From IMG/VR virus record IMGVR_UViG_3300045988_164453: DNA of 59,448 bases; one strand, 5' to 3'. This DNA is from a virus. Position 1 is the stretch's first letter. Each line of letters opens with the position of its first letter. Of the stretch, positions 1,472-57,370 are shown piece after piece. The translations under genes were made by a program, and so were the position numbers. The notes under the pieces were generated by a model. It was given only the letters and a program-made list of their open reading frames with translations, ran no database searches and was not told the DNA's origin.

Positions 1472-1978
1472 TCAATTCCATGATTTGCTAAATTCCTTAT
1501 CTTTAAACAATGATGCTAATCCTGTTATTTGTTTTAATCTTAGTATTTCATCTAAATCCATTCCTATGTTTTTAGCTATCCAAGCATCTGACATTCCGCT
1601 TTCAACTAATTCTGATATTATATTTGACATTAATTCTATGTTATGTGTTCCTCTTGCTCTATTATGTCTTATTGTAGATGCCATCCTGCCTTGAATTGGT
1701 TTATCTATAATTGATACAGGTAAGCATCCATTTTCTCTGTCATAAATATCTTTGTGTGTTTTCATAATTGTATATCTATGATACCCATCAACAATTTCAT
1801 ATATGTCTTCTTCTTCAATATAATAACAAACTACAGGCATAGTATATCCATCTTCTTTTATTGATTGATATAGTAATTTCATTTCTGGCGGTGCTACTGC
1901 ATTAGGATTATAAGCATTTGCTCTTATTTTTTCAATAGGTATAGCTTTTATATCGTAAACTGGACTTTTATAACTCAT
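1472..1978 (-). CDS. ParB/sulfiredoxin-fold protein (IbrB/DndB-like, DGxHR motif)
   Basis: 168 aa; YNPNAVAPPE, IVDGYHRY and RHNRARGTH motifs; AGGAGG RBS; last gene of a tightly packed 6-gene operon. Confidence 0.75.
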   Translation of the reverse strand: MSYKSPVYDIKAIPIEKIRANAYNPNAVAPPEMKLLYQSIKEDGYTMPVVCYYIEEEDIYEIVDGYHRYTIMKTHKDIYDRENGCLPVSIIDKPIQGRMASTIRHNRARGTHNIELMSNIISELVESGMSDAWIAKNIGMDLDEILRLKQITGLASLFKDKEFSKSWN

Positions 1979-1989
1979 AATATTCCTCC

Positions 1990-3315
1990 TTATTTTCCTC
2001 TTATTATATTTTTATATTTTGCAATACTATCTTGTCTTTTTTTAGTTTCTTCCTTTGTTGGTGAAAATCCCATGTATTTGCATAAATGGTCATTTTTCAT
2101 TATGCAAATACACATTCTTTTATATGTTGGTATTAATTTAAATTCAGTAACATTTGTATCATCGAGATATTCATTAAATTTTATAACTTGTTTTGTTTTT
2201 GATCTATTACTTAACTTTCCAGTCTCTATTAATTCAACTCCTTCAATCTTTAACTCTTCTATTGTTTTTTCATCTAAAGCACCTCCAGTATTTTTCCAAA
2301 ATTTTTTAGATGTCTCTAATTTTTTTAAATAATTATTTTTAACTTCTTCTGGAAGAGTTTCTAATAAAAACTCCATATAGCTTTTCCATGTATGCCCTTT
2401 TGGTAATTTTATGCTCTTCCATCCCATAGCAGTAGTTCCTCCGTATATTCCAGCAAAATTTACTCCGTTTACTCTTCCAACTAATTTTGCCCATGTGTTA
2501 GGCTCTATAACTTTATATATTTTTAAACTGTTTACCGCGCAATCATTAAACGGGCTTGCAACTCTCATTTGTTCAATGCTTAATCCTGCTTGATAATATA
2601 GATCGTATAGTTTATTATATTTAAATCCAAATTTTACATTTGCAATCCATATATCTTCTGTTGTCCAATCGTAAATAGGATATGCTTTGAAGGTTAAGTA
2701 GTTATCTTTGTAGATGTTTATCCAGTGCTTATTGTCATATTTAAATTTTTTCATTCTATTATTTCTACTATTTACTGTTCTATACCTATTCATGCTTTCA
2801 TTACTTCTTATTCCTATTGCGACTGCTGTACTTCCATATTTACTAGAAAACCATTTTCCGAATTTATCTTGCAAATCATAATCAAGAGTATCTTTTTTAA
2901 ATTCAAAAGGCACATTGTCTTCATTAATTACATATTTATTTTCAGGCATTTTTCTTGCCCATATGTCAACCACGTCTTTGTCCCATGGGGTCCAATGATC
3001 TTGATGCATTGATACTGCGCATTGTGCAGCAATAGGTAAACATAACCAAAATTTTTTAATTCCTTGAAAATTATTTAAAAAACAATCTGTAACAAAATTA
3101 GTTGTATAATCATATTGAGCTTCATAATCTAAATGATACATAGACAATTTATGTAATTTATTATGTTTTTTAGCATAATCATAACATAAATTTAATAAAA
3201 CTCCACTGTCTTTTCCACCCGAAAATGCAACTAATACATTATCGAATTCATCAAACATATATTTAATTCTATCTATTGATGCTTCATATACATTTTGATT
3301 ATTATATACCTTCAA
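1990..3315 (-). CDS. PAPS-reductase / PP-loop ATP-pyrophosphatase family protein with long C-terminal extension (IbrA-like)
   Basis: 441 aa; PP-loop VAFSGGKDS near the N-terminus; TTG start 6 nt after AGGAGGG; overlaps the SNF2 gene by 14 nt. Confidence 0.75.
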   Translation of the reverse strand: MKVYNNQNVYEASIDRIKYMFDEFDNVLVAFSGGKDSGVLLNLCYDYAKKHNKLHKLSMYHLDYEAQYDYTTNFVTDCFLNNFQGIKKFWLCLPIAAQCAVSMHQDHWTPWDKDVVDIWARKMPENKYVINEDNVPFEFKKDTLDYDLQDKFGKWFSSKYGSTAVAIGIRSNESMNRYRTVNSRNNRMKKFKYDNKHWINIYKDNYLTFKAYPIYDWTTEDIWIANVKFGFKYNKLYDLYYQAGLSIEQMRVASPFNDCAVNSLKIYKVIEPNTWAKLVGRVNGVNFAGIYGGTTAMGWKSIKLPKGHTWKSYMEFLLETLPEEVKNNYLKKLETSKKFWKNTGGALDEKTIEELKIEGVELIETGKLSNRSKTKQVIKFNEYLDDTNVTEFKLIPTYKRMCICIMKNDHLCKYMGFSPTKEETKKRQDSIAKYKNIIRGK

Positions 3316-4819
3316 TTAAATCCCTCCTGTTGTTACCTTTAATTTTTTTAGTTACTTTCTTTCCAAAACTATTTTTAACTTTTATATATTCTGATTTTAT
3401 ATCTTCAAAATTATCTTTGTTATTATCTATTTCTCTTTTGAAAGCATTAACTAAGTTTTCTTTTTTCTTTAAACATTTTATTATTTTTTCATCAAGTGTA
3501 TAAGTAGCGCATATATCTATTATATGCACATTTTTATTTTGTCCTATTCTATGAACTCTGTCCTCACTTTGTGCTCTTGTTGCATAATCCCAATCATTGC
3601 TATAATAAATTATATAGCTACAAAATTGTAAGTTTAAACCATATCCTGCACATGATTTATTTGCAATTAAGAATTTTGATTCATTTTTGAATTTTTTTAA
3701 ATTTTTTTCCCGTTGTTTTATGTTAAGTTCTCCATAAAATTCAATCGCTGCATCTTTCCCATATTTATTATTAATAAGTGTTGCTATATTTTTTATTTCA
3801 TCGGTATATTTACAAAATATGATAGTTTTTTCTGCTATTGTATCAATTATTTCAATCAATTTTTGTATTCTTGGATTGCTTTCAATATTTCCAAAAAAAT
3901 TGACTTTGTTCATTCCAGTAACTTTTTTTACTTCTATTTTTTTATATTCACATTCATACATATCATATTGTTTTATTGTATCTATTTCATGATAAACATT
4001 GACTTTATAGCCAGATATTACATTTTGAAGTGCTGTAAACATTCTATAGATTGTATGAGGTTCTAATTCGTCAATATCGAACATTAAGTCATTTGCTACT
4101 TTTTCATAATGCTTGTATTGTTCTTTAGTTAAGTTGTAATATTTAGTAGAATATGATTTTTCAGGCAAATCTAAACATTCACTTTTTTTAACTTGATAAG
4201 AATAAGATGATATTTTTTTTGATAAATAATCAACATTCAAGCATCTATTAATCTTATTTGGAATATGTTCATCATATTCTATATGATTTCCTGCAAAACT
4301 CCAAAATGATTTATATCCTAAAACTCTCCAATCAAGAATATACCATTGAGCAAATAAATCAACTTCATTTCTTGATATTGGTGTTCCATTTAATATTAAT
4401 TTGTATTTGCAATATTCTGATAATCTTATAATATTTTTTGTTCTTTTTGCAAAAAAATTTTTAACTAAATTACTCTCGTCAACTATTAAATAACAATTCA
4501 TATCTTTTACTAATTCTAACAGTTCAGAATTCACCCTTATGCTACTTGATAATGTTTCTATGCCACAAATTGTAATTAAATCTTTGCATGTATCCCCTGC
4601 GTGCTTTATAATTTCCCTTTGTAGACTTTCTTTGACAGAGTAAGGACATAACCATAGAACATGATTAATTTTACCTTTTTCTAGTCTTATTTTGATTAAT
4701 TCAAGTGCAGTTCTTGTTTTTCCTGTGCCTTGTTCCATATATAATGCTCCGATTTTTATTTTTCTGAGCTTTTCAACACATTTTTTTTGATGTTCGTATA
4801 AATTTGTAAATAATTCCAA
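3302..4819 (-). CDS. SNF2-family helicase/ATPase
   Basis: 505 aa; motif I EQGTGKT, motif II DESN, motif III LNGTP, motif VI QSEDRVHRIGQ; TTG start after AAGGTG. Confidence 0.85.
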   Translation of the reverse strand: MELFTNLYEHQKKCVEKLRKIKIGALYMEQGTGKTRTALELIKIRLEKGKINHVLWLCPYSVKESLQREIIKHAGDTCKDLITICGIETLSSSIRVNSELLELVKDMNCYLIVDESNLVKNFFAKRTKNIIRLSEYCKYKLILNGTPISRNEVDLFAQWYILDWRVLGYKSFWSFAGNHIEYDEHIPNKINRCLNVDYLSKKISSYSYQVKKSECLDLPEKSYSTKYYNLTKEQYKHYEKVANDLMFDIDELEPHTIYRMFTALQNVISGYKVNVYHEIDTIKQYDMYECEYKKIEVKKVTGMNKVNFFGNIESNPRIQKLIEIIDTIAEKTIIFCKYTDEIKNIATLINNKYGKDAAIEFYGELNIKQREKNLKKFKNESKFLIANKSCAGYGLNLQFCSYIIYYSNDWDYATRAQSEDRVHRIGQNKNVHIIDICATYTLDEKIIKCLKKKENLVNAFKREIDNNKDNFEDIKSEYIKVKNSFGKKVTKKIKGNNRRDLIEGI

Positions 4820-4830
4820 TTTATCACCTT

Positions 4831-5349
4831 CTAATCTTCTTCTATCAAATCATCTATAATTTTATTTGTGTTTTTTATACCTACTATTTCAAGAAAATTA
4901 TCAAATAATAAATCTCCTTTTAAATATTGTTTAATTGATGATACTTTGAACATATCATTTTTATTACATATTTTAGTTAATTTACCTTTTAAAACTATAT
5001 AATATCCACTTTCTCCATATTTAATGTTATTATAAGCAATATCTAAAATTTCAAATTCTTTGCACGTATAATTCCCTTCAACGAGACATTCTTTATAATT
5101 ACCAAACGTATGTTCAAAATGTTTATATAAAAGTTTTATGCCATATTTACGATCATATTCACATCTTGCAACATATGGTTGATACTTAATCTCTCTAACA
5201 CTTCTAAAAAAGAACGTATATTCTTCACTTAATTTATCTATTTCTTTTTTAATATTTTTAATATTAATCATCCTATTGTCTATTTCAATCCTAATATCTT
5301 TTGATAATTGTTTAAGTTCTTCTGATGACATATTTTTAAAATCAAACAT
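4831..5349 (-). CDS. Hypothetical protein (172 aa), operon member
   Basis: ORF with AAGGGGA RBS, 1-nt gap to the upstream gene, no recognisable motif. Confidence 0.6.
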   Translation of the reverse strand: MFDFKNMSSEELKQLSKDIRIEIDNRMINIKNIKKEIDKLSEEYTFFFRSVREIKYQPYVARCEYDRKYGIKLLYKHFEHTFGNYKECLVEGNYTCKEFEILDIAYNNIKYGESGYYIVLKGKLTKICNKNDMFKVSSIKQYLKGDLLFDNFLEIVGIKNTNKIIDDLIEED

Positions 5350-5350
5350 A

Positions 5351-5776
5351 CTATTTCCCCTTTTCTATTACTATTTTATTATCTATTAATTTAATAATAA
5401 CATTTCTATCTTCTTCTGTTATACCTAATGATTTTACCCAAGATGTAGGAATAGTAACTCTATTTGTTATAGCATTGCCTCTTGCAGTGCCTCCGCTTTT
5501 TGCAAACTGCATTTTTGCTTTTCTTTGATTATACTTAGGAATAGCTAAAAATCCCCATTCAAACATATATCTCCTTCCTGCTCTATCATATTCGTAGTTT
5601 TCTACTTCTGGATATACATCTATATATTTACAAAGAAAATCATAATTTTCTTCTGAAAAATCATCAAATGAATAAGATTCAAAATTCATACCATTTTTTC
5701 TTAAAAATTCATTTACTTCTCTTAGTCCCTCAAAAAAGTTTGAATATTTTTTACCTAATCTATACCATTTATTCAT
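5351..5776 (-). CDS. Protein with C-terminal AbrB/SpoVT/MazE-like swapped-hairpin domain (141 aa)
   Basis: C-terminal RVTIPTSWVKSLGITEEDRNVIIKLIDNKIVIEK. ATG at 5776 follows GAGAGGTG; the track start at 5791 lies inside that RBS. Confidence 0.5.
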   Translation of the reverse strand: MNKWYRLGKKYSNFFEGLREVNEFLRKNGMNFESYSFDDFSEENYDFLCKYIDVYPEVENYEYDRAGRRYMFEWGFLAIPKYNQRKAKMQFAKSGGTARGNAITNRVTIPTSWVKSLGITEEDRNVIIKLIDNKIVIEKGK

Positions 5777-5794
5777 AATAACACCTCTCAAAAT

Positions 5795-6247
5795 TTACAT
5801 ATTTTCAAATTCCCTTACTAATGACCATATAAATTTAACTTGTTTTTTAGGTTCATATAACAAAGTATTTTCTATCATATAATCTTTTAAACCTCTGAAA
5901 TTTTCTATAAAGAACTTAGCTTCTTCTTGAACTAATATATTCTTTAATGATGCCTGAGCTATAACATACATATTATCATCTAGCCATGTAGATTTCGCCA
6001 TTTTATACATGTCAACACCTTCTATTGCTTTTTCAAATATTTCATTTACTTTTATAATTCTATTTCTTATGTCTTCTGCCCATTTAACTTGTTTTTCAGT
6101 CCCTTTAAGCTCTACCATTTCTTTACCTCCTTTTTGAGACAAGAAAGACAAACATAAACTTAATTGAGTCATATAATCAACATCTCCATATTTATTTACT
6201 ATTTCCCTTGTCATTTTATGAGCTTCTTTCATTAAATTTCTTTTCAT
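5795..6247 (-). CDS. Hypothetical protein (150 aa), first gene of the operon
   Basis: GGAGGTAAGG RBS; sits directly behind the promoter at 6280-6306. Confidence 0.6.
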   Translation of the reverse strand: MKRNLMKEAHKMTREIVNKYGDVDYMTQLSLCLSFLSQKGGKEMVELKGTEKQVKWAEDIRNRIIKVNEIFEKAIEGVDMYKMAKSTWLDDNMYVIAQASLKNILVQEEAKFFIENFRGLKDYMIENTLLYEPKKQVKFIWSLVREFENM

Positions 6248-6279
6248 CTTCCTTACCTCCTATATCTTTTATTAATTAT

Positions 6280-6306
6280 ATTATAGCACAATTCGAGTCG
6301 AATCAA
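6280..6306 (-). promoter_or_regulatory. Sigma-A-type promoter of the SNF2/PAPS-reductase/ParB operon
   Basis: Minus strand reads TTGATT-N15-TGCTATAAT (extended -10). Confidence 0.5.
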
Positions 6307-6344
6307 ACATGTTTTATTAAATTTATTTAAAAAAGTTTTCGACA

Positions 6345-6370
6345 TAAAAAGACTCCCTATGAAGGGAGTT
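6345..6370 (-). terminator. Intrinsic terminator ending the membrane-protein/ATPase operon
   Basis: Minus strand ACTCCCT-tcat-AGGGAGT followed by TTTTT. Confidence 0.7.
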
Positions 6371-6392
6371 GAGCTATAAAACTATTTAATGT

Positions 6393-8681
6393 CTAGTTCT
6401 TTATTTTTAATTCAGCAGGTAAATGAGTTATAAAAGCCTTCTTACCTTTAGATGTAGCAACTAAATTCAAACTATGCCATCTTTCTAAGTTCAAAAGGTC
6501 CTCTACTTCATAACCTTCTTTTTCAAAATCACTCCTAAAAGAACTGAATGCATTTTCATCTACTCCACTTATAAGCATATAACTAGCATTAGCATTTCTC
6601 ATGGCCCTTTGAGCATCTTGTGATAACTGTTGCAAGTAATGTAAAGTTAATACATACTTTAACCCAAATTTAGCACTTTGAACAAAATTTTTAGCTAATA
6701 TCTTTTGAGCACATGGAGTTTGAAATATTTCATCTATTAATACAGTTACTCTGTCAGGTAAATTATGCATAGTCCCTCTTATCTTTAATGCAGCCCATAT
6801 TTTTTGTAAGAAAAATGAAGTCAATATATCAATAGAAATATCATCATCAAAATCTTTATCTCTCATTCTTATAAGTATTACTTTGCGTTCTTCCATAGCT
6901 TTTACAAAATCTATATTGTTTTCTGGAGTCTTGCTTATCATTTCATCTATTATTATATTTTCTCTCATCAAGTCGATTCTATCTAAGATCCCCTCTATTT
7001 TTATTTCCTTAGTTCCAGTAACTTCACCCTTTTTATTTACTTCATCCAATTCATTTAGTGATAGTATACTATCTTTTAGTCTATCTTTTAATTCTTCACT
7101 TAATTTATTTATATATTTATATCTAATTTCATGGAATTGCAGTATATTTAATACATCCTTCATACATGAATTTGGAAAACAAAATGCAATTCTTGCAGCT
7201 GCTCCTAAATATTTTCGCATTTTTGGTGATAGTTCTTTATCATCTCCATTTATTATATTTACTATTTTTAATAAGTTATTAGTTTGTTTTCTTGATATAC
7301 TTGATATTTCATAAGCACTCATATCAGAAGTAATCTTAAATTCATTATAACAAAGGCTTTGTATCATTTTAGGATTAGAAAGATCTATATCTATCAATCT
7401 ATCTTTTGGAGTTATAGCTTTTATATTATTTGCCAACTCACAATCTTTGATAAAGTCTAATGCTATCAATCCTTCATTATTATCTATAATATTTTTACTT
7501 AGATTAATACTAAAAGTTGATTTACCACTTCTAGAAGCTCCTAATATTGCTAGTGGTAATGATTGTAGGTTTATATCATCACTTAGGAAAGCTTCTTGAT
7601 AAGTCTCTTTATATTTATTTATACCTAAGCTAATAATACCTTTTGTTAATTCTTTTGGTACTGGATTTTCTTTAGTTTCTTTATGAGTTATGTTTTTATA
7701 TTGATCTATTAATTCTGCCCCTGGTAAAGAAATAAAATTTGAACACTCTTCTGTACTAGTAGAATTTATCTTAACATTGTTAATTATATATCTATTTATA
7801 TCTGTATCTTTTTTTATTTTTGTATAAATTAATTCATTGTCTCCGTTAATTTTAGAAAAACTATTATAAATAGACTGGCATAATTGATTTTCTCTTGATT
7901 TTTCCTCTGAATGAGCTAAAATTAGAGTCTGATTTTTAAGTATTTCCTTTTGAAGCTTTCTTTGGGTGCTAGAAGAGGTTTCTTTTCCTAAAGGATAAAG
8001 TATAAGCTGACTATTTTGCTCTCCATTTAAAAGACAATTTAAAAGGGCATTTATCAAGTCTATTAAAAATTTTAGTGCTATTTTTGAATAATCCAATAAA
8101 TTTTTAGATTTCTTTAAGTTTTCTCCGTTTTTATATCTTTGTATAGTTTCACTACTCTTCTTTTTAAAGTAATTACTTTCTTTTTCTGACACAGGAATAA
8201 AATTATATAGTACTCCTATAAATTCATTTTCTTGTAAAATTTCTAATGTAGATAAATTGGCTGATAATAAATCATTATTTCTTCTATCGGTTTCCAAAGA
8301 TAATGCATCATCAAATTTGTAATATAATTGGTATTTACTACATGAATTAATATCTACTGGAATTGCATCTACAACTTTTATATCTACATTTTTCCATGTA
8401 TCGGAAAATTTACTTTTAAATTGATTCTGAAATATTTTAGGAATAATAAAATAAAAAGATATGTTTTCTTTAGATATGTGTATATAGTAAGAAGCTTTTA
8501 ATCTAGTTTCTATTATTAGCTTTTTATTTTCTTTATAGATAAGTTTATTAGTGCTTCTATACATACTATTAATAAGATGTGCTATTCCTATAGTTGTATT
8601 ATTTCTACTGCTTTTAGTTGGAATTAATTTAAATGTTACATATTCTTGTCTTTTAATTGAATAATAATCACTTAATTTCAT
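6393..8681 (-). CDS. FtsK/HerA/VirB4-superfamily P-loop ATPase (762 aa)
   Basis: Walker A GASRSGKST lies mid-protein, followed by a GLIALDF strand, Walker B VTVLIDEIF ~260 aa later, then TLHYLQQLS. ATG at 8681 follows AGGAGA and overlaps the upstream stop (ATGA). Confidence 0.7.
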   Translation of the reverse strand: MKLSDYYSIKRQEYVTFKLIPTKSSRNNTTIGIAHLINSMYRSTNKLIYKENKKLIIETRLKASYYIHISKENISFYFIIPKIFQNQFKSKFSDTWKNVDIKVVDAIPVDINSCSKYQLYYKFDDALSLETDRRNNDLLSANLSTLEILQENEFIGVLYNFIPVSEKESNYFKKKSSETIQRYKNGENLKKSKNLLDYSKIALKFLIDLINALLNCLLNGEQNSQLILYPLGKETSSSTQRKLQKEILKNQTLILAHSEEKSRENQLCQSIYNSFSKINGDNELIYTKIKKDTDINRYIINNVKINSTSTEECSNFISLPGAELIDQYKNITHKETKENPVPKELTKGIISLGINKYKETYQEAFLSDDINLQSLPLAILGASRSGKSTFSINLSKNIIDNNEGLIALDFIKDCELANNIKAITPKDRLIDIDLSNPKMIQSLCYNEFKITSDMSAYEISSISRKQTNNLLKIVNIINGDDKELSPKMRKYLGAAARIAFCFPNSCMKDVLNILQFHEIRYKYINKLSEELKDRLKDSILSLNELDEVNKKGEVTGTKEIKIEGILDRIDLMRENIIIDEMISKTPENNIDFVKAMEERKVILIRMRDKDFDDDISIDILTSFFLQKIWAALKIRGTMHNLPDRVTVLIDEIFQTPCAQKILAKNFVQSAKFGLKYVLTLHYLQQLSQDAQRAMRNANASYMLISGVDENAFSSFRSDFEKEGYEVEDLLNLERWHSLNLVATSKGKKAFITHLPAELKIKN

Positions 8682-8851
8682 AGTAGACACTCTCCTAATA
8701 TTGACAATACAAGATATACCCCTATAGCTATAGTTGGACCATGCTTACATTTATCTAAACCATAGGCATATAATATAAAGCTTACTAACCCACTGATTAA
8801 GCATAAGTTATATGAACATCCTAATATGCTAAAGATTATTTTAGATTTCAT
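8678..8851 (-). CDS. Small membrane protein (57 aa, two hydrophobic helices); below ORF-track cutoff
   Basis: MKSKIIFSILGCSYNLCLISGLVSFILYAYGLDKCKHGPTIAIGVYLVLSILGECLL; GGAGGTG RBS; stop overlaps the ATPase start. Confidence 0.6.
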   Translation of the reverse strand: MKSKIIFSILGCSYNLCLISGLVSFILYAYGLDKCKHGPTIAIGVYLVLSILGECLL

Positions 8852-8862
8852 AATATCACCTC

Positions 8863-9255
8863 CTAGAAATTAATCTTACTAAACATATTAAATAATGAAG
8901 GATATAGTTTAATTAATACATAAGTTAATAGATACTGCATTCCTGATGTTGTTGCCTCTTTAAAGCTTCCTCCAGCAATCATAGTAGATATTATCTCCTT
9001 CAGCCCTAGACCTAAAAATGAATACTTAGCTAATACTAACAACATATCTATTATTTGTTTAGCTGAATTATTTAAACTCACTTCAAAACTTTCTGCATAA
9101 ATTATATTATTATTTTTCATTAGCAAAGCTACTAATAATACTAATCTTGAATATACAACTTTATTTCTTTTGATATGATCTAAGAACTTTTCTATCATAT
9201 TCAAGTCCTCTTCTTCTAAATGTAAAAATTCCGAAAAAGTGTAATATTTTACCAT
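8863..9255 (-). CDS. Membrane protein (130 aa) with a signal-like helix and two further hydrophobic segments
   Basis: VVYSRLVLLVALLM..IIYA, then IIDMLLVLAKYSFLGLGL and YLLTYVLIKLYPSLF; AGGGGGA RBS. Confidence 0.65.
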   Translation of the reverse strand: MVKYYTFSEFLHLEEEDLNMIEKFLDHIKRNKVVYSRLVLLVALLMKNNNIIYAESFEVSLNNSAKQIIDMLLVLAKYSFLGLGLKEIISTMIAGGSFKEATTSGMQYLLTYVLIKLYPSLFNMFSKINF

Positions 9256-9296
9256 TATAAAATCCCCCTTATGAGAAATAATATTCTTAATCTTTT

Positions 9297-9325
9297 ATTT
9301 TATCGGAGGTAAGTGAATTGTTTAA
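9297..9325 (-). promoter_or_regulatory. Possible promoter of the membrane-protein/ATPase operon
   Basis: Minus strand TTAAAC-N17-TAAAAT. Confidence 0.35.
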
Positions 9326-9383
9326 GGCTGGCATTTATTTTGGGTTGGCTGCATTATGTGAATTATTAAGACATCTTATATAA

Positions 9384-9418
9384 TAAAAAGCCCAGGATAC
9401 TCTTTCCTTGGCTTTTTC
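9384..9418. terminator. Bidirectional hairpin terminator
   Basis: AAGCCCAGGA / TCCTTGGCTT stem (one mismatch) flanked by an A-run and a T-run. Confidence 0.55.
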
Positions 9419-9424
9419 TTTTGT

Positions 9425-9595
9425 TTAATCTTCTTTATTTATTTCTTTTAGCATTTCTTTCCTTAGAACTTGTTTTATATAGTTGCTTTTGCCATACACT
9501 TCAAATTTACGTTGGAGCCAATCTAAAAGCATGGTATCATCAAGTGTGTTCTTTTTAAATGAAATATTGATTATAGTTGGTTTTTCTTTTGCCAT
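9425..9595 (-). CDS. Small protein (56 aa), possible ribbon-helix-helix regulator
   Basis: MAKEKPTIINISFKKNTLDDTMLLDWLQRKF...; GAGGTGAG RBS; terminator directly downstream; not in ORF track. Confidence 0.45.
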   Translation of the reverse strand: MAKEKPTIINISFKKNTLDDTMLLDWLQRKFEVYGKSNYIKQVLRKEMLKEINKED

Positions 9596-9822
9596 AATCT
9601 CACCTCACTAATTTTTATTCAATTATTACCTAAAAAATGTATAATTTATATATTATTTATTTTTTCTTGAAATCCTCTATTTATTTTCTTTGTATAAATA
9701 TATGCAATTCTTCTATAAGTGTTACATAAAATTATTTAAAAATTATTTAAAATTTATATAAATTTATGCAATTTTTATATAACTCTTGCATATATATAAG
9801 TAAATAAAAAATTAAGGGGGAT

Positions 9823-9966
9823 ATGAAAATGAAAGAAATGTTAGAAAAGACTAGCATGGAAATGTTAAAAGAATACTTCTATGATGCAAGAGGATATTAT
9901 CCGGGAGATGAATTTACTAAGGAAGAACTTGTAAATATAATATTAAAAGACATGGAGGGTAAATAA
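9823..9966 (+). CDS. Hypothetical small protein (47 aa)
   Basis: AAGGGGG RBS; its stop abuts the ATG of the next ORF. Confidence 0.45.
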   Translation: MKMKEMLEKTSMEMLKEYFYDARGYYPGDEFTKEELVNIILKDMEGK

Positions 9967-10173: not shown

Positions 10174-10308
10174 TAAAGGAAAGGCTAGGGATTGACTTCT
10201 CTAGTCTTTTTATGTCGAACGATTATTGGAATATTTTTTAAAATATAGTTGACGGCTTTTTCCTTAAGGACTACCATTATAGTATAAATAGTAAAGGAGG
10301 TGATAGAG

Positions 10309-10452
10309 ATGAAAGATAAAGAAAAAAAGATAACAGTTAGAGTTAGCCCTGAACTTTATAAAAAGTTTAAGATAAAACTTTTAGAAAATGAACGGACGAT
10401 GAAAGAAGTTGTAACAGAATTCATAATTAAATATGTTGATGAAAGCAAATAA
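10309..10452 (+). CDS. Ribbon-helix-helix (CopG/Arc-like) small protein (47 aa)
   Basis: MKDKEKKITVRVSPELYKKFKIKLLENERTMKEVVTEFIIKYV; AAAGGAGGTG RBS. Confidence 0.55.
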   Translation: MKDKEKKITVRVSPELYKKFKIKLLENERTMKEVVTEFIIKYVDESK

Positions 10453-10570: not shown

Positions 10571-11377
10571 ATGAAAGATTTAATACCAGTAAAATTTAAT
10601 GAAGAGGTAGTTATAACTACTAAAATGTTAGCAGATGTTTATGAGACTGAAGAAATAAGAATACAACAAAATTTCAATAGCAACCAAGAAAAATTCAAAG
10701 AAGGAAAACATTACTATAAACTACAAGGCAATGATTTAAAGGAATTCAAAAGGGTACTAGTTAAAAACGAAGACCCTTTATATCAAGAAATTAAATTTGC
10801 TTCAGTCTTAATACTTTGGACTAAACGAGGTGCTAGTAGACATTGTAAAATGTTAGGAACTGATAAAGCATGGGAAATGTTCGATACATTAGAAGAAAAT
10901 TATTTCAACCCAAAACCACAATTAACAAAACACGACCAAGCAATATTAAATATAATCAATTCAAGAACAGACCTAGAAAAAGCCATAGCAATCAAAGATT
11001 TTGAAAAAGTAGTAACTGAACCACTACAAGATGAAATAAAAGTATTAAAACCTAAAGCACATTATACAGATATAATTTTACAAAATAAAGGATTAATCAA
11101 AGTAACATCAATAGCAAAAGATTATGGAATATCTGCTCAAGAGTTTAATAAATTACTTTGTGATTTTAAAATACAATATAGATTAGGCAATCAATGGTTT
11201 TTATATAAAAAATATCAAAATAAGGGATATACTCATTCTGAAACAGTAAATTACAAACATAAAGATGGTAGAGATGATGTGAGTATTATAACTAAATGGA
11301 CTCAAAAGGGAAGATTATTCTTGTATGAGTTTTTAAAAGAAAAAGATATTTTACCTATAATAGAAAAAGATTTATAA
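10571..11377 (+). CDS. Antirepressor-type protein (ORF6N/KilA-N-like N-terminus plus KilAC C-terminus)
   Basis: N-terminal VVITTKMLADVYETEEIRIQQNFNSNQEKFKEGKHYYKL; C-terminal VTSIAKDYGISAQEFNKLL...KWTQKGRLFLYEFL. Confidence 0.7.
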   Translation: MKDLIPVKFNEEVVITTKMLADVYETEEIRIQQNFNSNQEKFKEGKHYYKLQGNDLKEFKRVLVKNEDPLYQEIKFASVLILWTKRGASRHCKMLGTDKAWEMFDTLEENYFNPKPQLTKHDQAILNIINSRTDLEKAIAIKDFEKVVTEPLQDEIKVLKPKAHYTDIILQNKGLIKVTSIAKDYGISAQEFNKLLCDFKIQYRLGNQWFLYKKYQNKGYTHSETVNYKHKDGRDDVSIITKWTQKGRLFLYEFLKEKDILPIIEKDL

Positions 11378-51135: not shown

Positions 51136-52044
51136 CTAATTTCCCATTATTTTTTTCTTTTCTCTGCTAATGGTGTTTTGCGCTACTCCTAATAAATCTG
51201 CTATTTGCTTTTGTTTCAGTCCTTGTTTCATAAGTACTGATATCTTTTCTCTTCTTTTTTCTAAGTCTTCTTTATCGTATTTTCTCTTTTTGATTGGTTT
51301 ATCTATTTCTTTTCCTTTTAATTCTTTTGCTAACATTTCTAGTGCTTTTGTTTCTAACCTGTATAACTTATGATTTGGAATGTTCATTATTTTTGATATT
51401 TCTTTTAAATAATACCCTCTAAAATATTTAAGTTCTATTATTTCTCTAAGTTCTGCAGGTAATTTTTGAATTGCTTGTTTGATTATTATTTTATTTATGA
51501 TTTGTTCTTCTGATATGTTATTGTGGTCTGGTATTATATCTTTTTTATCCTTTTCTTCATCAACCGGTGAAGGTCTATCTAGTTCGGCATAATTCATTAA
51601 TTGTAATATCTTTTCAATATCTTTTTCATCTGCTTCAAGATATTTTGCAATTTCTTTTTGTGTCGGAAATTTATGTAACTCATTTATTAATTTAGGTGTA
51701 GCTTCTAATATTTGTTTTTTTAGTTGATAATCTTCTCGGTGCAATTTATATGGTAAATTTTCTCTCTTGTCTCTTATAAATTTTATGATTTGCCAGTTTA
51801 TTAGGTTATATGCATAAGTTGTAAATGCTATCTTGTCATATTTATCTGGTTCAAAAGTATCAACTGATTTTATGAGTCCTATTGTTGCTTCTTGTTTAGC
51901 TGTTTCAATGTCTATCGTTTCACTTCTTGTATATTTTATTGCAATACTTATAGCAATTCCTATATTATTTTCAATTAATTGCTTTCTGACCTCTTTATCG
52001 CCATTTCTAGCACGTTCAAACATCTCTTTAGTATTATTATTCAT
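51136..52044 (-). CDS. Sigma-70 family RNA polymerase sigma factor with an extra C-terminal HTH
   Basis: 302 aa; region 2 AFTTYAYNLINWQIIKFIRDKR; region 4 LPAELREIIELKYFRGYYLKEISKIMN; C-terminal LKQKQIADLLGVAQNTISR. Confidence 0.75.
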   Translation of the reverse strand: MNNNTKEMFERARNGDKEVRKQLIENNIGIAISIAIKYTRSETIDIETAKQEATIGLIKSVDTFEPDKYDKIAFTTYAYNLINWQIIKFIRDKRENLPYKLHREDYQLKKQILEATPKLINELHKFPTQKEIAKYLEADEKDIEKILQLMNYAELDRPSPVDEEKDKKDIIPDHNNISEEQIINKIIIKQAIQKLPAELREIIELKYFRGYYLKEISKIMNIPNHKLYRLETKALEMLAKELKGKEIDKPIKKRKYDKEDLEKRREKISVLMKQGLKQKQIADLLGVAQNTISREKKKIMGN

Positions 52045-56605: not shown

Positions 56606-57370
56606 TTACTTATTTTCTAATTCTTCCAATAATTTTTCTAATATCTTTCTTTGTCCTTTTCCGGTAACGCGTGTAACATGGAATGTAAATACTCCTTTAG
56701 AACTTTCTCTAGTCCCTTCTCTTACTTCTAAGTATCCATGTATTATCGCTTCTTGCTTAGCTTCTGTACTATTCTTAAATATCCAGCCCCAATCTCTAAG
56801 CTTTTGGTACAATTTCTTTTCTCCTATAACTATGCCATGGTGATTACTTAGTATCTTTGCTACTTCCCTAACCAATAAGGAATTTTTACTAGCAGATATT
56901 TGGTTCAGCATCTTACTATTTTTCTCTAGCTTGTCCTCTAGTTGTTTAGATTTTTCTTGTTCCTCTTTTAACTTAGTTGCTAACTGTATAAGAAAATCTG
57001 GACTAGTTAATGCTTTTTCTATTGTATTCTCTGTCATATAAGCTCCATGTTTTCTTATAGAAGGTAAAACCTCATCAAATATCCATCTTTCAAACTTTTC
57101 TGCATTTGGTAATTTACTGCCTATTATTAATCTGTATATGTCACCTTCTGGTATTATATTTGTCATTCTCATTTGTCCTCTTGAATTTTCAACCTCGTAT
57201 TTTACGATGTTCATGCACTTTGTGTTTACTGCATCAGTTGGGTTTTTATATCCTAATGCTTTTGCTACGTCATTTGCTACTGCATATGTTTTTTCTTTTA
57301 TTTCTAATACTCTTATTTCTCCAAATTCATTATTACTAAATGTTTTATAACTTAAATATAAATCACTCAT
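56606..57370 (-). CDS. BRO-N plus KilAC antirepressor
   Basis: FGEIRVLEIKEKTYAVANDVAKALGY...AEKFERWIFDEVLPSIRKHGAYM; C-terminal VREVAKIL...HGYLEV...VTGKGQ. Confidence 0.75.
   Translation of the reverse strand: MSDLYLSYKTFSNNEFGEIRVLEIKEKTYAVANDVAKALGYKNPTDAVNTKCMNIVKYEVENSRGQMRMTNIIPEGDIYRLIIGSKLPNAEKFERWIFDEVLPSIRKHGAYMTENTIEKALTSPDFLIQLATKLKEEQEKSKQLEDKLEKNSKMLNQISASKNSLLVREVAKILSNHHGIVIGEKKLYQKLRDWGWIFKNSTEAKQEAIIHGYLEVREGTRESSKGVFTFHVTRVTGKGQRKILEKLLEELENK

What the first reader, a model, noticed from the sequence alone, without database searches (positions are those of the whole stretch)
6345..9595. Phage-borne mini-operon: two small membrane proteins plus an FtsK/HerA/VirB4-type ATPase, preceded by a small RHH-like gene
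There are three translationally coupled genes. The first encodes a 130-aa protein with a signal-like helix and two further TM segments. The second encodes a 57-aa two-TM protein that is absent from the ORF track. The third encodes a 762-aa ATPase with Walker A (GASRSGKST) in mid-protein, a nearby hhhhD strand (LIALDF) and Walker B (VLIDE) ~260 aa later. That spacing is the signature of HerA/VirB4/T4CP-class translocases. The gene order and sizes mimic virB2-virB3-virB4 (or tcpD-tcpE-tcpF) of type IV secretion. No relaxase, coupling protein, VirB6/VirB8 or other T4SS parts exist anywhere in the genome, and the phage has its own terminase for packaging. The unit has a putative promoter (9297-9325), a strong terminator (6345-6370) and a divergently placed 56-aa RHH-like gene. 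This looks like an autonomous accessory cassette, and I cannot assign it to a described phage function. Candidate roles are a membrane-coupled superinfection-exclusion or abortive-infection system, or a DNA or protein translocation device.
Basis: partly seen in the sequence, partly recalled or inferred. Interest (0 to 1): 0.8.

Follow-up and report, generated by a model that had tools for sequence, protein, structure and literature searches.

The report
Phage ParR-linked type-IV-secretion-like ATPase module
A prophage of a spore-forming gut bacterium carries a conserved four-gene set (a small DNA-binding protein, two small membrane proteins and a secretion-type motor ATPase) that is also found in the model Bacillus phages SPP1 and SPO1, has been noted before, and still has no known function.

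Summary
The genes are real and the ATPase call is right. The 762-aa protein belongs to the VirB4/coupling-protein/HerA clade. Its best fold match is full-length VirB4 of plasmid R388, although no Pfam VirB4 model matches.

It is not an orphan. It is a full-length homologue of SPP1 gp32 (hhalign 99.9%) and lies in the same family as SPO1 gp27.4. Two papers (2012, 2018) already proposed these genes as a phage "DNA translocation operon" or membrane translocon. [quoted passage not shown]

What this analysis adds:
- The 56-aa "RHH-like" gene is co-directional with the cassette, not divergent, and is a homologue of the plasmid partition adaptor ParR.
- This gene lies upstream of the ATPase in 65 of 85 related loci. 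In 26 of them an actin-like ParM gene abuts it.
- The two membrane proteins co-occur with the ATPase in 64-70 loci.
- The Bacillus-type counterparts of the 130-aa protein weakly match VirB2/TrbC pilins.
- Six loci fuse an M23 cell-wall peptidase to the 57-aa protein's family.
- No other type IV secretion gene occurs in any locus.
- Hosts are Bacillota; most named genera form endospores.

Best guess: a secretion-derived membrane machine that handles phage DNA.

The parts
9689..9804 (.). Two 52-nt direct repeats (9689-9740 and 9753-9804, 77% identical). Each contains TATGCAA-N14-TT(G/A)CATA. They lie in the divergent intergenic region just upstream of the ParR-like gene. Candidate operator or centromere-like (parC-like) site; binding is inferred, not shown.
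   Evidence: (families D1, D3; inverted repeats I1-I3), read on the sequence
9425..9595 (-). 56-aa ParR-family small DNA-binding protein (the counterpart of SPP1 gp31). It is co-directional with the cassette and lacks the C-terminal (I/L)LDF-type tail seen in copies that sit next to ParM.
   Evidence: The family profile matches pCW3 ParR by hhalign (95.8%, E 7.5e-9). The family was found upstream of the ATPase in 65 of 85 loci. Alignment. No Pfam or PDB sequence hit.
9382..9420 (-). Terminator-like hairpin plus U-run between the ParR-like gene and the cassette
   Evidence: I10: 16-nt arms, 88% complementary; dG -13.9 kcal/mol, z -3.6, 0 of 200 shuffles fold as well
9297..9324 (-). Not distinguishable from chance.
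   Evidence: 9/12 match; 42 sites found against 48.6 expected in shuffles
8863..9255 (-). Membrane protein A (130 aa). It has an N-terminal cytoplasmic T-x-x-E-F motif, then a signal-like helix ending in a small residue (IYA), then two hydrophobic helices joined by a polar GG-x-K loop. This is a pilin-like (VirB2-type) layout.
   Evidence: alignment. jackhmmer finds one homologue per locus in 70 loci. Bacillus-type counterparts hit Pfam TrbC/VirB2 below threshold. Collinear but weak hhalign to the SPP1 gp31.1 group (28%, E 6e-4).
8678..8851 (-). Membrane protein B (57 aa). A two-TM hairpin with a basic loop. Its stop codon overlaps the ATPase start (ATGA). VirB3-like by size, topology and position.
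   Evidence: The family is in 64 loci, with its stop mostly within -12 to +13 nt of the ATPase ORF start. Six homologues carry an N-terminal M23 peptidase domain.
6393..8681 (-). 762-aa ATPase. It has a family-specific N-terminal domain of about 370 aa with no TM segment, followed by a VirB4/TrwB/HerA-type P-loop domain (Walker A about 381-389, Walker B about 647-651) with an all-helical insert.
   Evidence: phrog_5156 over the full length, E 2e-91. AF2 model pLDDT 92.8. Foldseek top hits are R388 TrwK/VirB4. Profile against PDB gives TrwB, DptH, DotL, B204 and HerA. hhalign to SPP1 gp32 is 99.9%.
6352..6369 (-). Intrinsic-terminator-like hairpin (7-bp stem, 4 GC pairs) plus T-run that ends the cassette

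Best explanation
The region is the Peptostreptococcaceae-phage version of a conserved four-gene module. The module comprises a ParR-type small DNA-binding protein, a pilin-like membrane protein, a two-TM hairpin protein and a soluble hexameric-type ATPase of the VirB4/coupling-protein/HerA clade. It matches SPP1 genes 31, 31.1, 31.2 and 32; the ATPase is in the same family as SPO1 gp27.4, whose operon has a similar layout.

Identity and composition are shown. The mechanism below is inferred.

The ATPase probably docks on the cytoplasmic face of the membrane through the hairpin protein, as VirB4 docks on VirB3. It probably works on or with the pilin-like protein to form a minimal type-IV-secretion-derived membrane complex.

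The ParR-like protein probably binds repeated sites on the phage genome (candidate site 9689-9804). It would then present that DNA to the ATPase, much as ribbon-helix-helix accessory proteins present plasmid DNA to coupling proteins. In about half of the relatives the same adaptor can also engage a ParM filament.

The net activity would be tethering or translocation of the phage's own DNA at a membrane. This is dispensable for lytic growth in the laboratory. It may be useful in endospore-forming hosts, for example to place the genome at the pole or in the forespore, or to move it between compartments.
For: Identity:
- The ATPase matches phrog_5156 over its full length.
- hhalign of the clostridial profile against SPP1 gp32 gives 99.9%, E 1.3e-31, over 741 columns.
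- tblastn finds 122 and 107 phage records, including SPP1, GBK2, SPO1 gp27.4, SP-10 and 0305phi8-36 ORF201.
- There are 712 clusters at 50% identity in the representative library.

ATPase class:
- Foldseek with the high-confidence model ranks full-length TrwK/VirB4 first (E 2e-12, about 880 aligned columns). HerA, the VirB4 C-domain (target TM-score 0.65) and TrwB (0.56) follow.
- The sequence profile hits TrwB, DptH, DotL, B204 and HerA.
- Pfam TrwB_AAD_bind matches 9 of 38 members.

Membrane partners:
- They co-occur strictly with the ATPase, in 70 and 64 loci, and lie adjacent to it.
- The Bacillus-type A proteins hit the TrbC/VirB2 pilin model as their only or best Pfam match, over nearly the whole model, in 4 of 5 cases.
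- M23 peptidase is fused to protein B in six loci. This ties the module to the cell envelope, like the VirB1-type hydrolases of Gram-positive secretion systems (review).

DNA link:
- The 56-aa family is homologous to pCW3 ParR.
- It is present upstream in 65 of 85 loci. ParM is adjacent in 26 of these and absent in 33.
- The family includes SPP1 gp31.
- Paired repeats lie upstream of the gene.

Host range:
- Hits come almost only from Bacillota (Bacillus and relatives, clostridia, Peptostreptococcaceae) in phages, plasmids and genomes; the two exceptions are noted under evidence against.

Literature:
- SPP1 genes 31.2 and 32, and 0305phi8-36 orf200-207, are non-essential. Both were proposed as DNA or macromolecule translocation devices.
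Against: - No experiment bears on function.
- The window's own A and B proteins have no significant match to VirB2, VirB3, TcpD or TcpE.
- The link between clostridial and Bacillus-type A proteins is weak (28% probability). None was detected for B.
- No Pfam VirB4 model matches the ATPase. TcpF aligns only at the P-loop.
- The full-length fold match has TM-score 0.33, so similarity of the N-domain to VirB4 is unproven.
- No channel-forming polytopic protein (VirB6-like) is present. A complete conduit is therefore not evident.
- ParR proteins also act as simple autorepressors, so the adaptor role is conjecture.
- The ribbon-helix-helix fold of the 56-aa protein was not shown directly.
- The restriction to spore-formers rests on database searches with two queries and one peptide pattern, plus my own knowledge of which genera sporulate. 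The only hits outside Bacillota are one phage record labelled Microcystis and one Haladaptatus plasmid.
Confidence: 0.45

Rival explanations
1. Superinfection-exclusion or abortive-infection module. The ATPase senses or removes incoming foreign DNA, and the two small membrane proteins act as a gate or as membrane-damaging effectors. This would protect the lysogen, or the infected cell in virulent phages, from competing phages.
For: The PADLOC model mad8 (a component of the MADS defence system) matches residues 378-701 at E 4.4e-11. HerA-type ATPases of defence systems (Sir2-HerA, DUF4297-HerA, DndH/DptH) are among the best fold and profile matches. The cassette lies in the accessory region between the lysis genes and the integrase. 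It is non-essential in SPP1 and 0305phi8-36.
Against: No other mad gene or defence-system partner was found among the seven cassette and adjacent downstream proteins scanned. No nuclease, Sir2 or other known effector domain occurs in the module. The conserved partner is a ParR homologue, often with ParM, which points to handling of the element's own DNA. The M23 peptidase fusions and pilin-like features fit an envelope apparatus better. The mad8 match covers only the generic ATPase domain.
Confidence: 0.2
2. A DNA-partition accessory only. The ParR-like protein is the regulator and adaptor of a segregation system. The ATPase with its membrane anchors merely tethers the replicating or plasmid-state phage genome to the membrane, and nothing crosses the membrane.
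For: ParM is directly adjacent in 26 loci and present in 42 of 85. In 0105phi7-2 and phiCp-D the module sits next to ParA/RepA or ParM and replication genes. Many homologues are on non-mobilizable plasmids of about 55 kb in Clostridium. No channel protein is present.
Against: The module is kept in virulent phages that have no plasmid state (SPP1, SPO1, SP-10). It is also kept in the window phage, which encodes a serine integrase, and in loci lying within multi-megabase chromosome records. The M23 peptidase fusions imply action outside the membrane. A VirB4/TrwB-type motor is unnecessary for passive tethering.
Confidence: 0.15
3. A protein-export or filament-assembly device. The VirB4-like ATPase extracts the pilin-like protein A from the membrane to build a short surface filament, or secretes a phage protein. 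DNA is not the substrate, and the ParR-like protein is only a transcriptional repressor.
For: Protein A has a pilin-like layout, and the Bacillus-type proteins give TrbC/VirB2 matches. The peptidase fusions would clear cell wall for a filament. A terminator-like hairpin separates the ParR-like gene from the cassette.
Against: VirB2-like pilins are not among the core components the review lists for most Gram-positive secretion systems; it reports a VirB2-like pilin array only in a patescibacterial system. The TrbC matches are below threshold and absent for the window's own protein. The conserved ParR linkage remains unexplained.
Confidence: 0.1
4. A decaying remnant of a conjugative element captured by a phage, with no present function.
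For: Only a subset of secretion-system parts is present.
Against: The same gene set is conserved, intact and syntenic across ATPase identities from 95% down to about 20%. This holds in more than 100 phage genomes and 712 sequence clusters. Catalytic residues are invariant. No related locus holds a fuller conjugation system.
Confidence: 0.03

Closest known systems
SPP1 genes 31 / 31.1 / 31.2 / 32 (Godinho et al. 2018, PMC6316719)
   Same: The ATPase is a full-length homologue of gp32. The order is the same: small DNA-binding-type protein, 3-segment membrane protein, 2-TM protein, then the ATPase with an overlapping start. The 56-aa protein is in the same family as gp31. The authors reported HHpred matches of gp32 to TrwB, VirB4 and FtsK, and proposed a trans-membrane translocon.
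   Different: ATPase identity is only about 20%. The membrane proteins are not demonstrably homologous at sequence level. SPP1 is virulent and expresses the genes early, whereas this phage is temperate. SPP1 gp31 has a long basic, proline-rich tail that the window protein lacks.
'DNA translocation operon' of Bacillus phages 0305phi8-36 and SPO1 (Pathria et al. 2012, PMC3357382)
   Same: The ATPase family is the same: SPO1 gp27.4 and 0305phi8-36 ORF201 are hits. The ATPase has no TM segment and is flanked by small membrane proteins and an actin-like gene (SPO1 gp27.9). Actin-like ParM genes are likewise linked in 42 of 85 loci studied here. Deletion gave no laboratory phenotype.
   Different: Those phages also carry a CloDF13 MobC-like 'relaxase' gene (orf200, gp27.3), and 0305phi8-36 carries a VirB6-like gene. 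No gp27.3 homologue exists in the window or in the clostridial-type loci, and the window has no polytopic membrane protein.
MPF-FA type IV secretion core of Gram-positive conjugative elements (TcpD-TcpE-TcpF of pCW3; VirB3-VirB4)
   Same: Two small membrane-protein genes lie directly upstream of, and partly overlap, a soluble ATPase of about 800 aa with a mid-protein Walker A. The best fold match is full-length VirB4. Cell-wall hydrolase domains are associated in some loci.
   Different: There is no detectable sequence homology to TcpD, TcpE or TcpF beyond the P-loop, and no Pfam VirB4 model matches. There is no relaxase, coupling protein, VirB6 or VirB8. The element is a tailed phage.
ParMRC (type II) plasmid partition systems, e.g. 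ParM/ParR of pCW3
   Same: The 56-aa protein family is homologous to pCW3 ParR. In 26 related loci it directly follows a ParM gene and carries a short C-terminal hydrophobic-acidic tail. Repeats lie upstream of the gene.
   Different: The window has no ParM and its ParR-like protein has no tail. Here, and in 32 other loci, the only conserved NTPase partner is the VirB4-like ATPase.
Other minimal membrane DNA-translocation sets recalled from the literature (not tested here): the archaeal Ced system (CedA1/CedA2 small membrane proteins with the CedB HerA/VirB4-like ATPase); the PRD1 packaging vertex (small membrane proteins P20/P22 with ATPase P9); Streptomyces TraB with Spd proteins
   Same: Each pairs an FtsK-HerA-superfamily ATPase with a few small membrane proteins and needs no relaxase. 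The STIV B204 packaging ATPase is a weak profile hit.
   Different: No specific homology was shown. These are analogies from my own knowledge, offered as models for how such a small set could work.

Membership tests
SPP1 gp31-gp32-type phage module (ATPase family phrog_5156) | ATPase homologous over its full length, including the N-terminal domain | tested here: met
   phrog_5156 E 2e-91, residues 3-757. hhalign to SPP1 gp32 is 99.9%, E 1.3e-31, 741 columns.
SPP1 gp31-gp32-type phage module (ATPase family phrog_5156) | Two small membrane-protein genes immediately upstream, the second abutting or overlapping the ATPase start | tested here: met
SPP1 gp31-gp32-type phage module (ATPase family phrog_5156) | gp31-like small protein encoded upstream on the same strand | tested here: met
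   Iterative HMM search unites the window protein with SPP1 gp31 (E 3e-12) and finds the family in 65 of 85 loci.
VirB4 (type IV secretion ATPase) | C-terminal FtsK/HerA-superfamily P-loop domain with Walker A and Walker B | tested here: met
   Invariant G386, K387, D650, E651. Fold matches to the VirB4 C-domain 4ag5 (target TM-score 0.65) and to TrwK.
VirB4 (type IV secretion ATPase) | Sequence match to VirB4 family models, or to a Gram-positive VirB4 (TcpF) | tested here: not met
   No VirB4-type Pfam family among the hits of the window protein or of 38 members. hhalign to TcpF aligns only 60 columns at the P-loop, 12.5%. phmmer with TcpF finds nothing in 85 loci.
VirB4 (type IV secretion ATPase) | VirB4-type N-terminal domain | tested here: inconclusive
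   Full-length TrwK is the top Foldseek hit, with about 880 aligned columns, but TM-score is 0.33 and rmsd 15 A. Domain-wise superposition could not be done.
VirB4 (type IV secretion ATPase) | Encoded within a locus that also has VirB6, VirB8, a coupling protein and a relaxase | tested here: not met
Type IV coupling protein (TrwB/VirD4) | N-terminal transmembrane anchor | tested here: not met
   No hydrophobic segment in the ATPase. The AF2 model shows a soluble N-domain.
Type IV coupling protein (TrwB/VirD4) | Nucleotide-binding domain plus all-alpha domain similar to TrwB | tested here: inconclusive
   Profile against PDB gives TrwB at E 1.7e-4 and DotL at 1e-3. Pfam TrwB_AAD_bind matches 9 of 38 members, all below the level of a confident family call. 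Foldseek to TrwB gives target TM-score 0.56.
HerA-type ATPase systems (HerA-NurA; Sir2-HerA; MADS mad8) | Partner nuclease, Sir2 or other system genes nearby | tested here: not met
   The only PADLOC hit is mad8 on the ATPase domain; the six neighbouring proteins scanned have none. Pfam and NCBIfam show no such partner.
VirB2/TrbC pilin (for the 130-aa protein) | Match to the TrbC/VirB2 pilin model | tested here: not met
   No hit for the window protein or the clostridial-type homologues. The positional counterparts in SPP1, 0105phi7-2, GBK2 and SP-10 hit it below threshold (E 0.0027-0.084, cut-off 27.9 bits).
VirB2/TrbC pilin (for the 130-aa protein) | Long leader with signal-peptidase-type site, followed by two hydrophobic helices joined by a short polar loop | tested here: met
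   Hydropathy and a 30-sequence alignment. Cleavage itself was not tested.
VirB3 (for the 57-aa protein) | Small protein with two TM helices, gene adjacent to and overlapping virB4 (criteria in PMC12857230) | tested here: met
   These criteria are positional and topological only. At 57 aa it is smaller than the 10-15 kDa given in the review, and no sequence homology to TcpE was found.
ParR (type II partition adaptor; for the 56-aa protein) | Homology to a ParR encoded next to ParM | tested here: met
   hhalign of the family against pCW3 ParR: 95.8%, E 7.5e-9
ParR (type II partition adaptor; for the 56-aa protein) | Adjacent ParM gene and a C-terminal ParM-binding tail | tested here: not met
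   No ParM in the window. The protein ends soon after the second helix. Both features are present in 26 related loci.
ParR (type II partition adaptor; for the 56-aa protein) | Binds iterated centromere repeats | not testable with these tools
   Candidate repeats lie at 9689-9804. Binding needs an experiment.

The most novel reading that the evidence does not exclude
The module is a phage-owned, secretion-derived DNA translocase specific to endospore-forming hosts. The ParR-like protein marks the phage genome, with ParM filaments pushing it poleward where present. The membrane-anchored VirB4-like ATPase then captures or pumps the genome across the sporulation septum. The phage thereby secures a place in the spore, acting as a viral counterpart of SpoIIIE. 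This would explain three things: why the module is dispensable in laboratory lytic growth, why it is kept by both virulent and temperate phages, and why it was found in Bacillus, Clostridium and related phages but not in phages of non-sporulating Firmicutes.
Probability: 0.15. Interest if true: 0.85.

Novelty: new member of a known kind. Interest (0 to 1): 0.55.

Why it matters
This gene set is among the more widespread unexplained modules in phages of Bacillus and clostridia. It accounts for 712 sequence clusters and is present in the model phages SPP1, SPO1 and SP-10.

It looks like a stripped-down type IV secretion core joined to a plasmid-partition adaptor. That combination has no described mechanism.

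Because SPP1 and SPO1 are genetically tractable and the genes are dispensable for growth, its function can be tested directly. Candidate roles include spore carriage of phage genomes, membrane tethering, cell-to-cell DNA movement and exclusion of rival phages.

An answer would also show how few parts a VirB4-type motor needs in a Gram-positive envelope.

Tried and rejected
- Pfam, NCBIfam and single-sequence PDB searches on the window proteins gave nothing useful for the ATPase, the two membrane proteins or the 56-aa protein.
- A megablast search of the region against phage genomes found nothing.
- The first AF2 run, with a shallow 13-sequence alignment, was poor (pLDDT 55) and was discarded. 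A 71-sequence alignment gave pLDDT 92.8.
- A broad alignment was too diverse for locus finding.
- Pairwise BLASTP of the membrane proteins against their SPP1 and phiCp-D counterparts found nothing.
- hhalign against single TcpD, TcpE and TcpF sequences gave at most 12.5% probability. I did not build VirB3 or VirB4 family profiles.
- The MADS preprint gave no description of mad8.
- The 0105phi7-2 paper does not discuss its ATPase.
- The ParR-like family has no Pfam or PDB sequence match, so the ribbon-helix-helix fold is inferred from its sequence pattern and its homology to ParR.
- I tested whether the 150-aa gene downstream (5795-6247) is the counterpart of the SPO1 gp27.3 'relaxase'. It is not. 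No gene family recurs downstream of the ATPase.
- I considered a packaging or replication role for the ATPase and set it aside. The phage has its own terminase and its own DnaD/DnaC-type replication genes, and the ATPase's closest relatives are secretion and HerA-type motors.

Full report
**1. What is in the sequence**

On the minus strand lie four closely spaced genes. They are a 56-aa gene (9425-9595), a 130-aa gene (8863-9255), a 57-aa gene (8678-8851) and an ATPase gene. The ATPase's likely start is the ATG at 8681, giving 762 aa, the length of its closest database relatives.

Independent gene calls in public assemblies give the same four products. Each gene is preceded by a Shine-Dalgarno-like sequence. 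The stop of the 57-aa gene overlaps the ATPase start (ATGA). The 130-aa and 57-aa genes are 11 nt apart.

A hairpin plus T-run follows the ATPase at 6352-6369. A second terminator-like hairpin lies between the 56-aa gene and the cassette at 9382-9420 (dG -13.9 kcal/mol, z -3.6).

The 56-aa gene is co-directional with the cassette, not divergent. The proposed promoter is a weak match in a region where such matches are no more frequent than chance.

**2. Setting**

The window is AT-rich (about 27-30% G+C). It encodes a serine integrase, tail sheath, tape measure, portal, large terminase, major head protein, RecT, DnaD- and DnaC-like proteins, a sigma factor and an endolysin. It is therefore a temperate contractile-tailed phage.

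The cassette lies in the accessory region between the lysis genes and the integrase end. It is followed by three small genes and a module of SNF2 helicase, PAPS-reductase-like and ParB-like genes.

Near-identical ATPases come from gut metagenomes and a Terrisporobacter genome bin. More distant ones come from Romboutsia.

**3. The ATPase**

No Pfam or NCBIfam family reaches threshold. The protein matches phrog_5156 (function unknown) over its full length (E 2e-91).

An exhaustive profile search finds 712 clusters at 50% identity, most of them full-length proteins of 750-850 aa.

With a 71-sequence alignment, AlphaFold2 gives a confident model (pLDDT 92.8, pTM 0.79). Foldseek against the PDB ranks the hits as follows:
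- Full-length TrwK/VirB4 of the R388 secretion system comes first (E 2e-12, about 880 aligned columns, but TM-score 0.33).
- HerA hexamers and Sir2-HerA come next.
- The VirB4 C-domain 4ag5 follows (target TM-score 0.65).
- TrwB (0.56) and the DndH C-domain come after that.

The sequence profile hits TrwB, DptH, DotL, STIV B204 and HerA. Nine of 38 family members weakly match Pfam TrwB_AAD_bind. PADLOC's mad8 model matches the ATPase domain only.

The conclusion is that this is a VirB4/coupling-protein/HerA-clade motor with a family-specific, TM-free N-terminal domain of about 370 aa. The architecture is VirB4-like. Sequence membership in VirB4 is not met: TcpF of pCW3 aligns only at the P-loop.

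**4. The two membrane proteins**

Iterative searches within 85 related loci find exactly one homologue of the 130-aa protein in each of 70 loci. Homologues of the 57-aa protein occur in 64 loci. The latter mostly end within -12 to +13 nt of the ATPase start. The trio is therefore inherited as a unit across ATPase identities from 95% down to about 26%.

The 130-aa family shares the following layout:
- an N-terminal T-x-x-E-F motif;
- a signal-like helix ending in a small residue;
- two hydrophobic helices separated by a polar GG-x-K loop.

This is the layout of VirB2-type pilins. The window protein itself matches no pilin model. However, its positional counterparts in SPP1, 0105phi7-2, GBK2 and SP-10 each hit Pfam TrbC/VirB2 as their only or best match, over nearly the whole model, at sub-threshold E-values of 0.0027-0.084. 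The clostridial and Bacillus-type families align collinearly but weakly (28% probability, E 6e-4).

The 57-aa family is a two-TM hairpin with a basic loop. It meets only the positional and topological criteria used for VirB3. No similarity to TcpD or TcpE was detected.

In six loci the hairpin protein carries an N-terminal M23 peptidoglycan peptidase domain. This domain fusion ties the module to the cell envelope.

**5. The small upstream gene is a ParR homologue**

The 56-aa protein belongs to a family found on the same strand upstream of the ATPase in 65 of 85 loci. The family includes SPP1 gp31.

Its profile matches the ParR of C. perfringens plasmid pCW3, the small gene next to ParM (hhalign 95.8%, E 7.5e-9).

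The relationship to ParM across those 65 loci is as follows:
- In 26 loci a ParM gene directly abuts the ParR-like gene. Many of these copies end in short (I/L)LDF- or NFDF-type tails; reading these as ParM-binding tails is my inference.
- In 6 loci ParM is present elsewhere in the locus.
- In 33 loci, including the window, ParM is absent; these copies, the window's included, lack such tails.

SPO1 shows a parallel arrangement: an actin-like gp27.9, then gp27.8, three small TM proteins and the ATPase gp27.4.

Just upstream of the window's ParR-like gene are two 52-nt repeats. Each contains TATGCAA-N14-TT(G/A)CATA. This is a candidate binding site.

The ribbon-helix-helix fold itself was not demonstrated.

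**6. What is absent, and where the module occurs**

No homologue of the pCW3 relaxase, coupling proteins, VirB8-like, VirB6-like, TcpD, TcpE or TcpF proteins occurs in the window or in any of the 85 loci. The window has no polytopic membrane protein. No gene family recurs downstream of the ATPase, and the SPO1 gp27.3 'relaxase-like' gene has no counterpart in these loci.

Homologues were found in the following places:
- 122 phage records with the window query and 107 with SPP1 gp32. These are Bacillus, Geobacillus, Lysinibacillus, Brevibacillus, Alicyclobacillus, Clostridium and Terrisporobacter phages, plus one record labelled Microcystis whose hit pattern resembles the roughly 80-kb Bacillus phages.
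- 57 plasmids, mostly non-mobilizable Clostridium and Bacillus plasmids.
- 36 species genomes, all Bacillota.
- The closest predicted viral structures are all from Bacillus phages.

No hit came from Staphylococcus, Streptococcus, Listeria, Lactococcus or Enterococcus phages. To my knowledge these are abundant in the collection and include relatives of SPO1.

Most host genera are endospore-formers. That judgement comes from my own knowledge, and a few genera are uncertain.

**7. Literature**

Godinho et al. 2018 describe SPP1 gp31.1 (3 TM), gp31.2 (2 TM) and gp32. They report HHpred matches of gp32 to TrwB, VirB4 and FtsK, and suggest a trans-membrane translocon. They also show that genes 31.2 and 32 are non-essential.

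Pathria et al. 2012 describe a 'DNA translocation operon' in phage 0305phi8-36. It comprises a MobC-like relaxase, a TM-less coupling ATPase homologous to SPO1 gp27.4, a VirB6-like gene and an actin-like gene. Its deletion has no effect on laboratory growth, and the authors speculated about cell-to-cell DNA movement.

The GenBank note for phage 0105phi7-2 records an HHpred match of its homologue to TrwK. I found no functional study.

**8. Interpretation**

Identity is firm. This is a new member of the SPP1 gene 31-32 module family, whose ATPase also places it with SPO1 gp27.4.

Function is inferred. The most economical reading is a minimal secretion-derived membrane complex, made of the ATPase, the hairpin anchor and the pilin-like protein. 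Its substrate or cargo would be the phage's own DNA, marked by the ParR-like protein.

The M23 fusions argue for action across or at the envelope. The ParR and ParM linkage argues for DNA rather than protein. Retention in virulent phages argues against a purely plasmid-maintenance role.

The apparent host restriction suggests a sporulation-related use, such as placing the genome in the forespore. This is speculation. It is foreshadowed only in general terms for other phage segregation genes.

Rivals that cannot be excluded are a defence or exclusion module (mad8- and HerA-like ATPase), a partition accessory only, or a protein or filament export device.

**9. Verdict**

The claim of an undescribed, unassignable cassette is not.

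The module is known but unexplained. The links to ParR, ParM, pilin-like proteins, the peptidase fusions and the host range sharpen the question and make it testable in SPP1 and SPO1.

Noticed in passing
window 9689-9804: Two 52-nt direct repeats, each with a TATGCAA-N14-TT(G/A)CATA palindrome, lie in the divergent intergenic region between the ParR-like gene and the plus-strand genes starting at 9823. They look like paired operators or a centromere-like site.
   Followed up: partly
window 1472-4819 (minus strand): A module of ParB-like (1472-1978), PAPS-reductase-like (1990-3315) and SNF2-type helicase (3302-4819) genes lies downstream of the cassette next to the integrase. These are known phage families (phrog_2159, phrog_2302, phrog_62). 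Its role here was not examined.
   Followed up: no
window 51136-52044 (minus strand): A phage-encoded RNA polymerase sigma factor (phrog_351). In SP-10 the homologous ATPase module sits right after a sigma factor and its accessory gene (L049: 1316-2183). Phage sigma factors in spore-former phages have been linked to dormancy (bioRxiv 10.1101/2021.11.12.468384).
   Followed up: no
window 5351-5791 (minus strand): A 146-aa protein whose last ~35 residues weakly match the AbrB/MazE (SpoVT-AbrB) DNA-binding fold (Pfam E 0.0012; phrog_2329 E 1e-19), two genes downstream of the ATPase.
   Followed up: no
window 10300-10452 and 10571-11377 (plus strand): A second small protein with a ribbon-helix-helix-like sequence pattern ('KKITVRVSPELYKKFK') is followed by an Ant-type anti-repressor. 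A second anti-repressor lies at 56606-57370.
   Followed up: no
L023:5198-5878, L034:5291-6001, L056:9357-9998, L057:9198-9878, L060:9315-10004, L061:9347-9991: In these loci the two-TM protein next to the ATPase carries an N-terminal M23 (LytM-type) peptidase domain but no signal peptide. If the basic loop between the two helices is cytoplasmic, the peptidase would face outward, which raises the question of how it is exported.
   Followed up: partly
L048 (SPO1) 1480-6990: SPO1 gp27.9 is an actin/ParM-like protein. gp27.7, gp27.6 and gp27.5 are three tiny TM proteins preceding the ATPase gp27.4. So a virulent phage carries a ParM-like gene linked to this module.
   Followed up: partly
L001 (phiCp-D) 4971-7386: The phiCp-D homologue is annotated as two CDSs ('lipid A export ATP-binding/permease' and 'TraD coupling protein'). 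Together they cover the whole ATPase, so this is probably a frameshift or sequencing error, and the names are misleading.
   Followed up: no
phage record MT362618.1 (hit H119): 'Microcystis phage MaeS' (80 kb) carries a homologue that matches like those of the ~80-kb Bacillus phages (Basilisk, PBC4, Staley). The host label may deserve checking.
   Followed up: no
L008/L009 8665-8865: Romboutsia-type loci have a second ParR-like gene, with a C-terminal 'VDWEF' tail, downstream of the ATPase. A ParM gene follows in L009 (8877-9746). These elements therefore carry two ParR paralogues, one tail-less beside the cassette and one with ParM.
   Followed up: no
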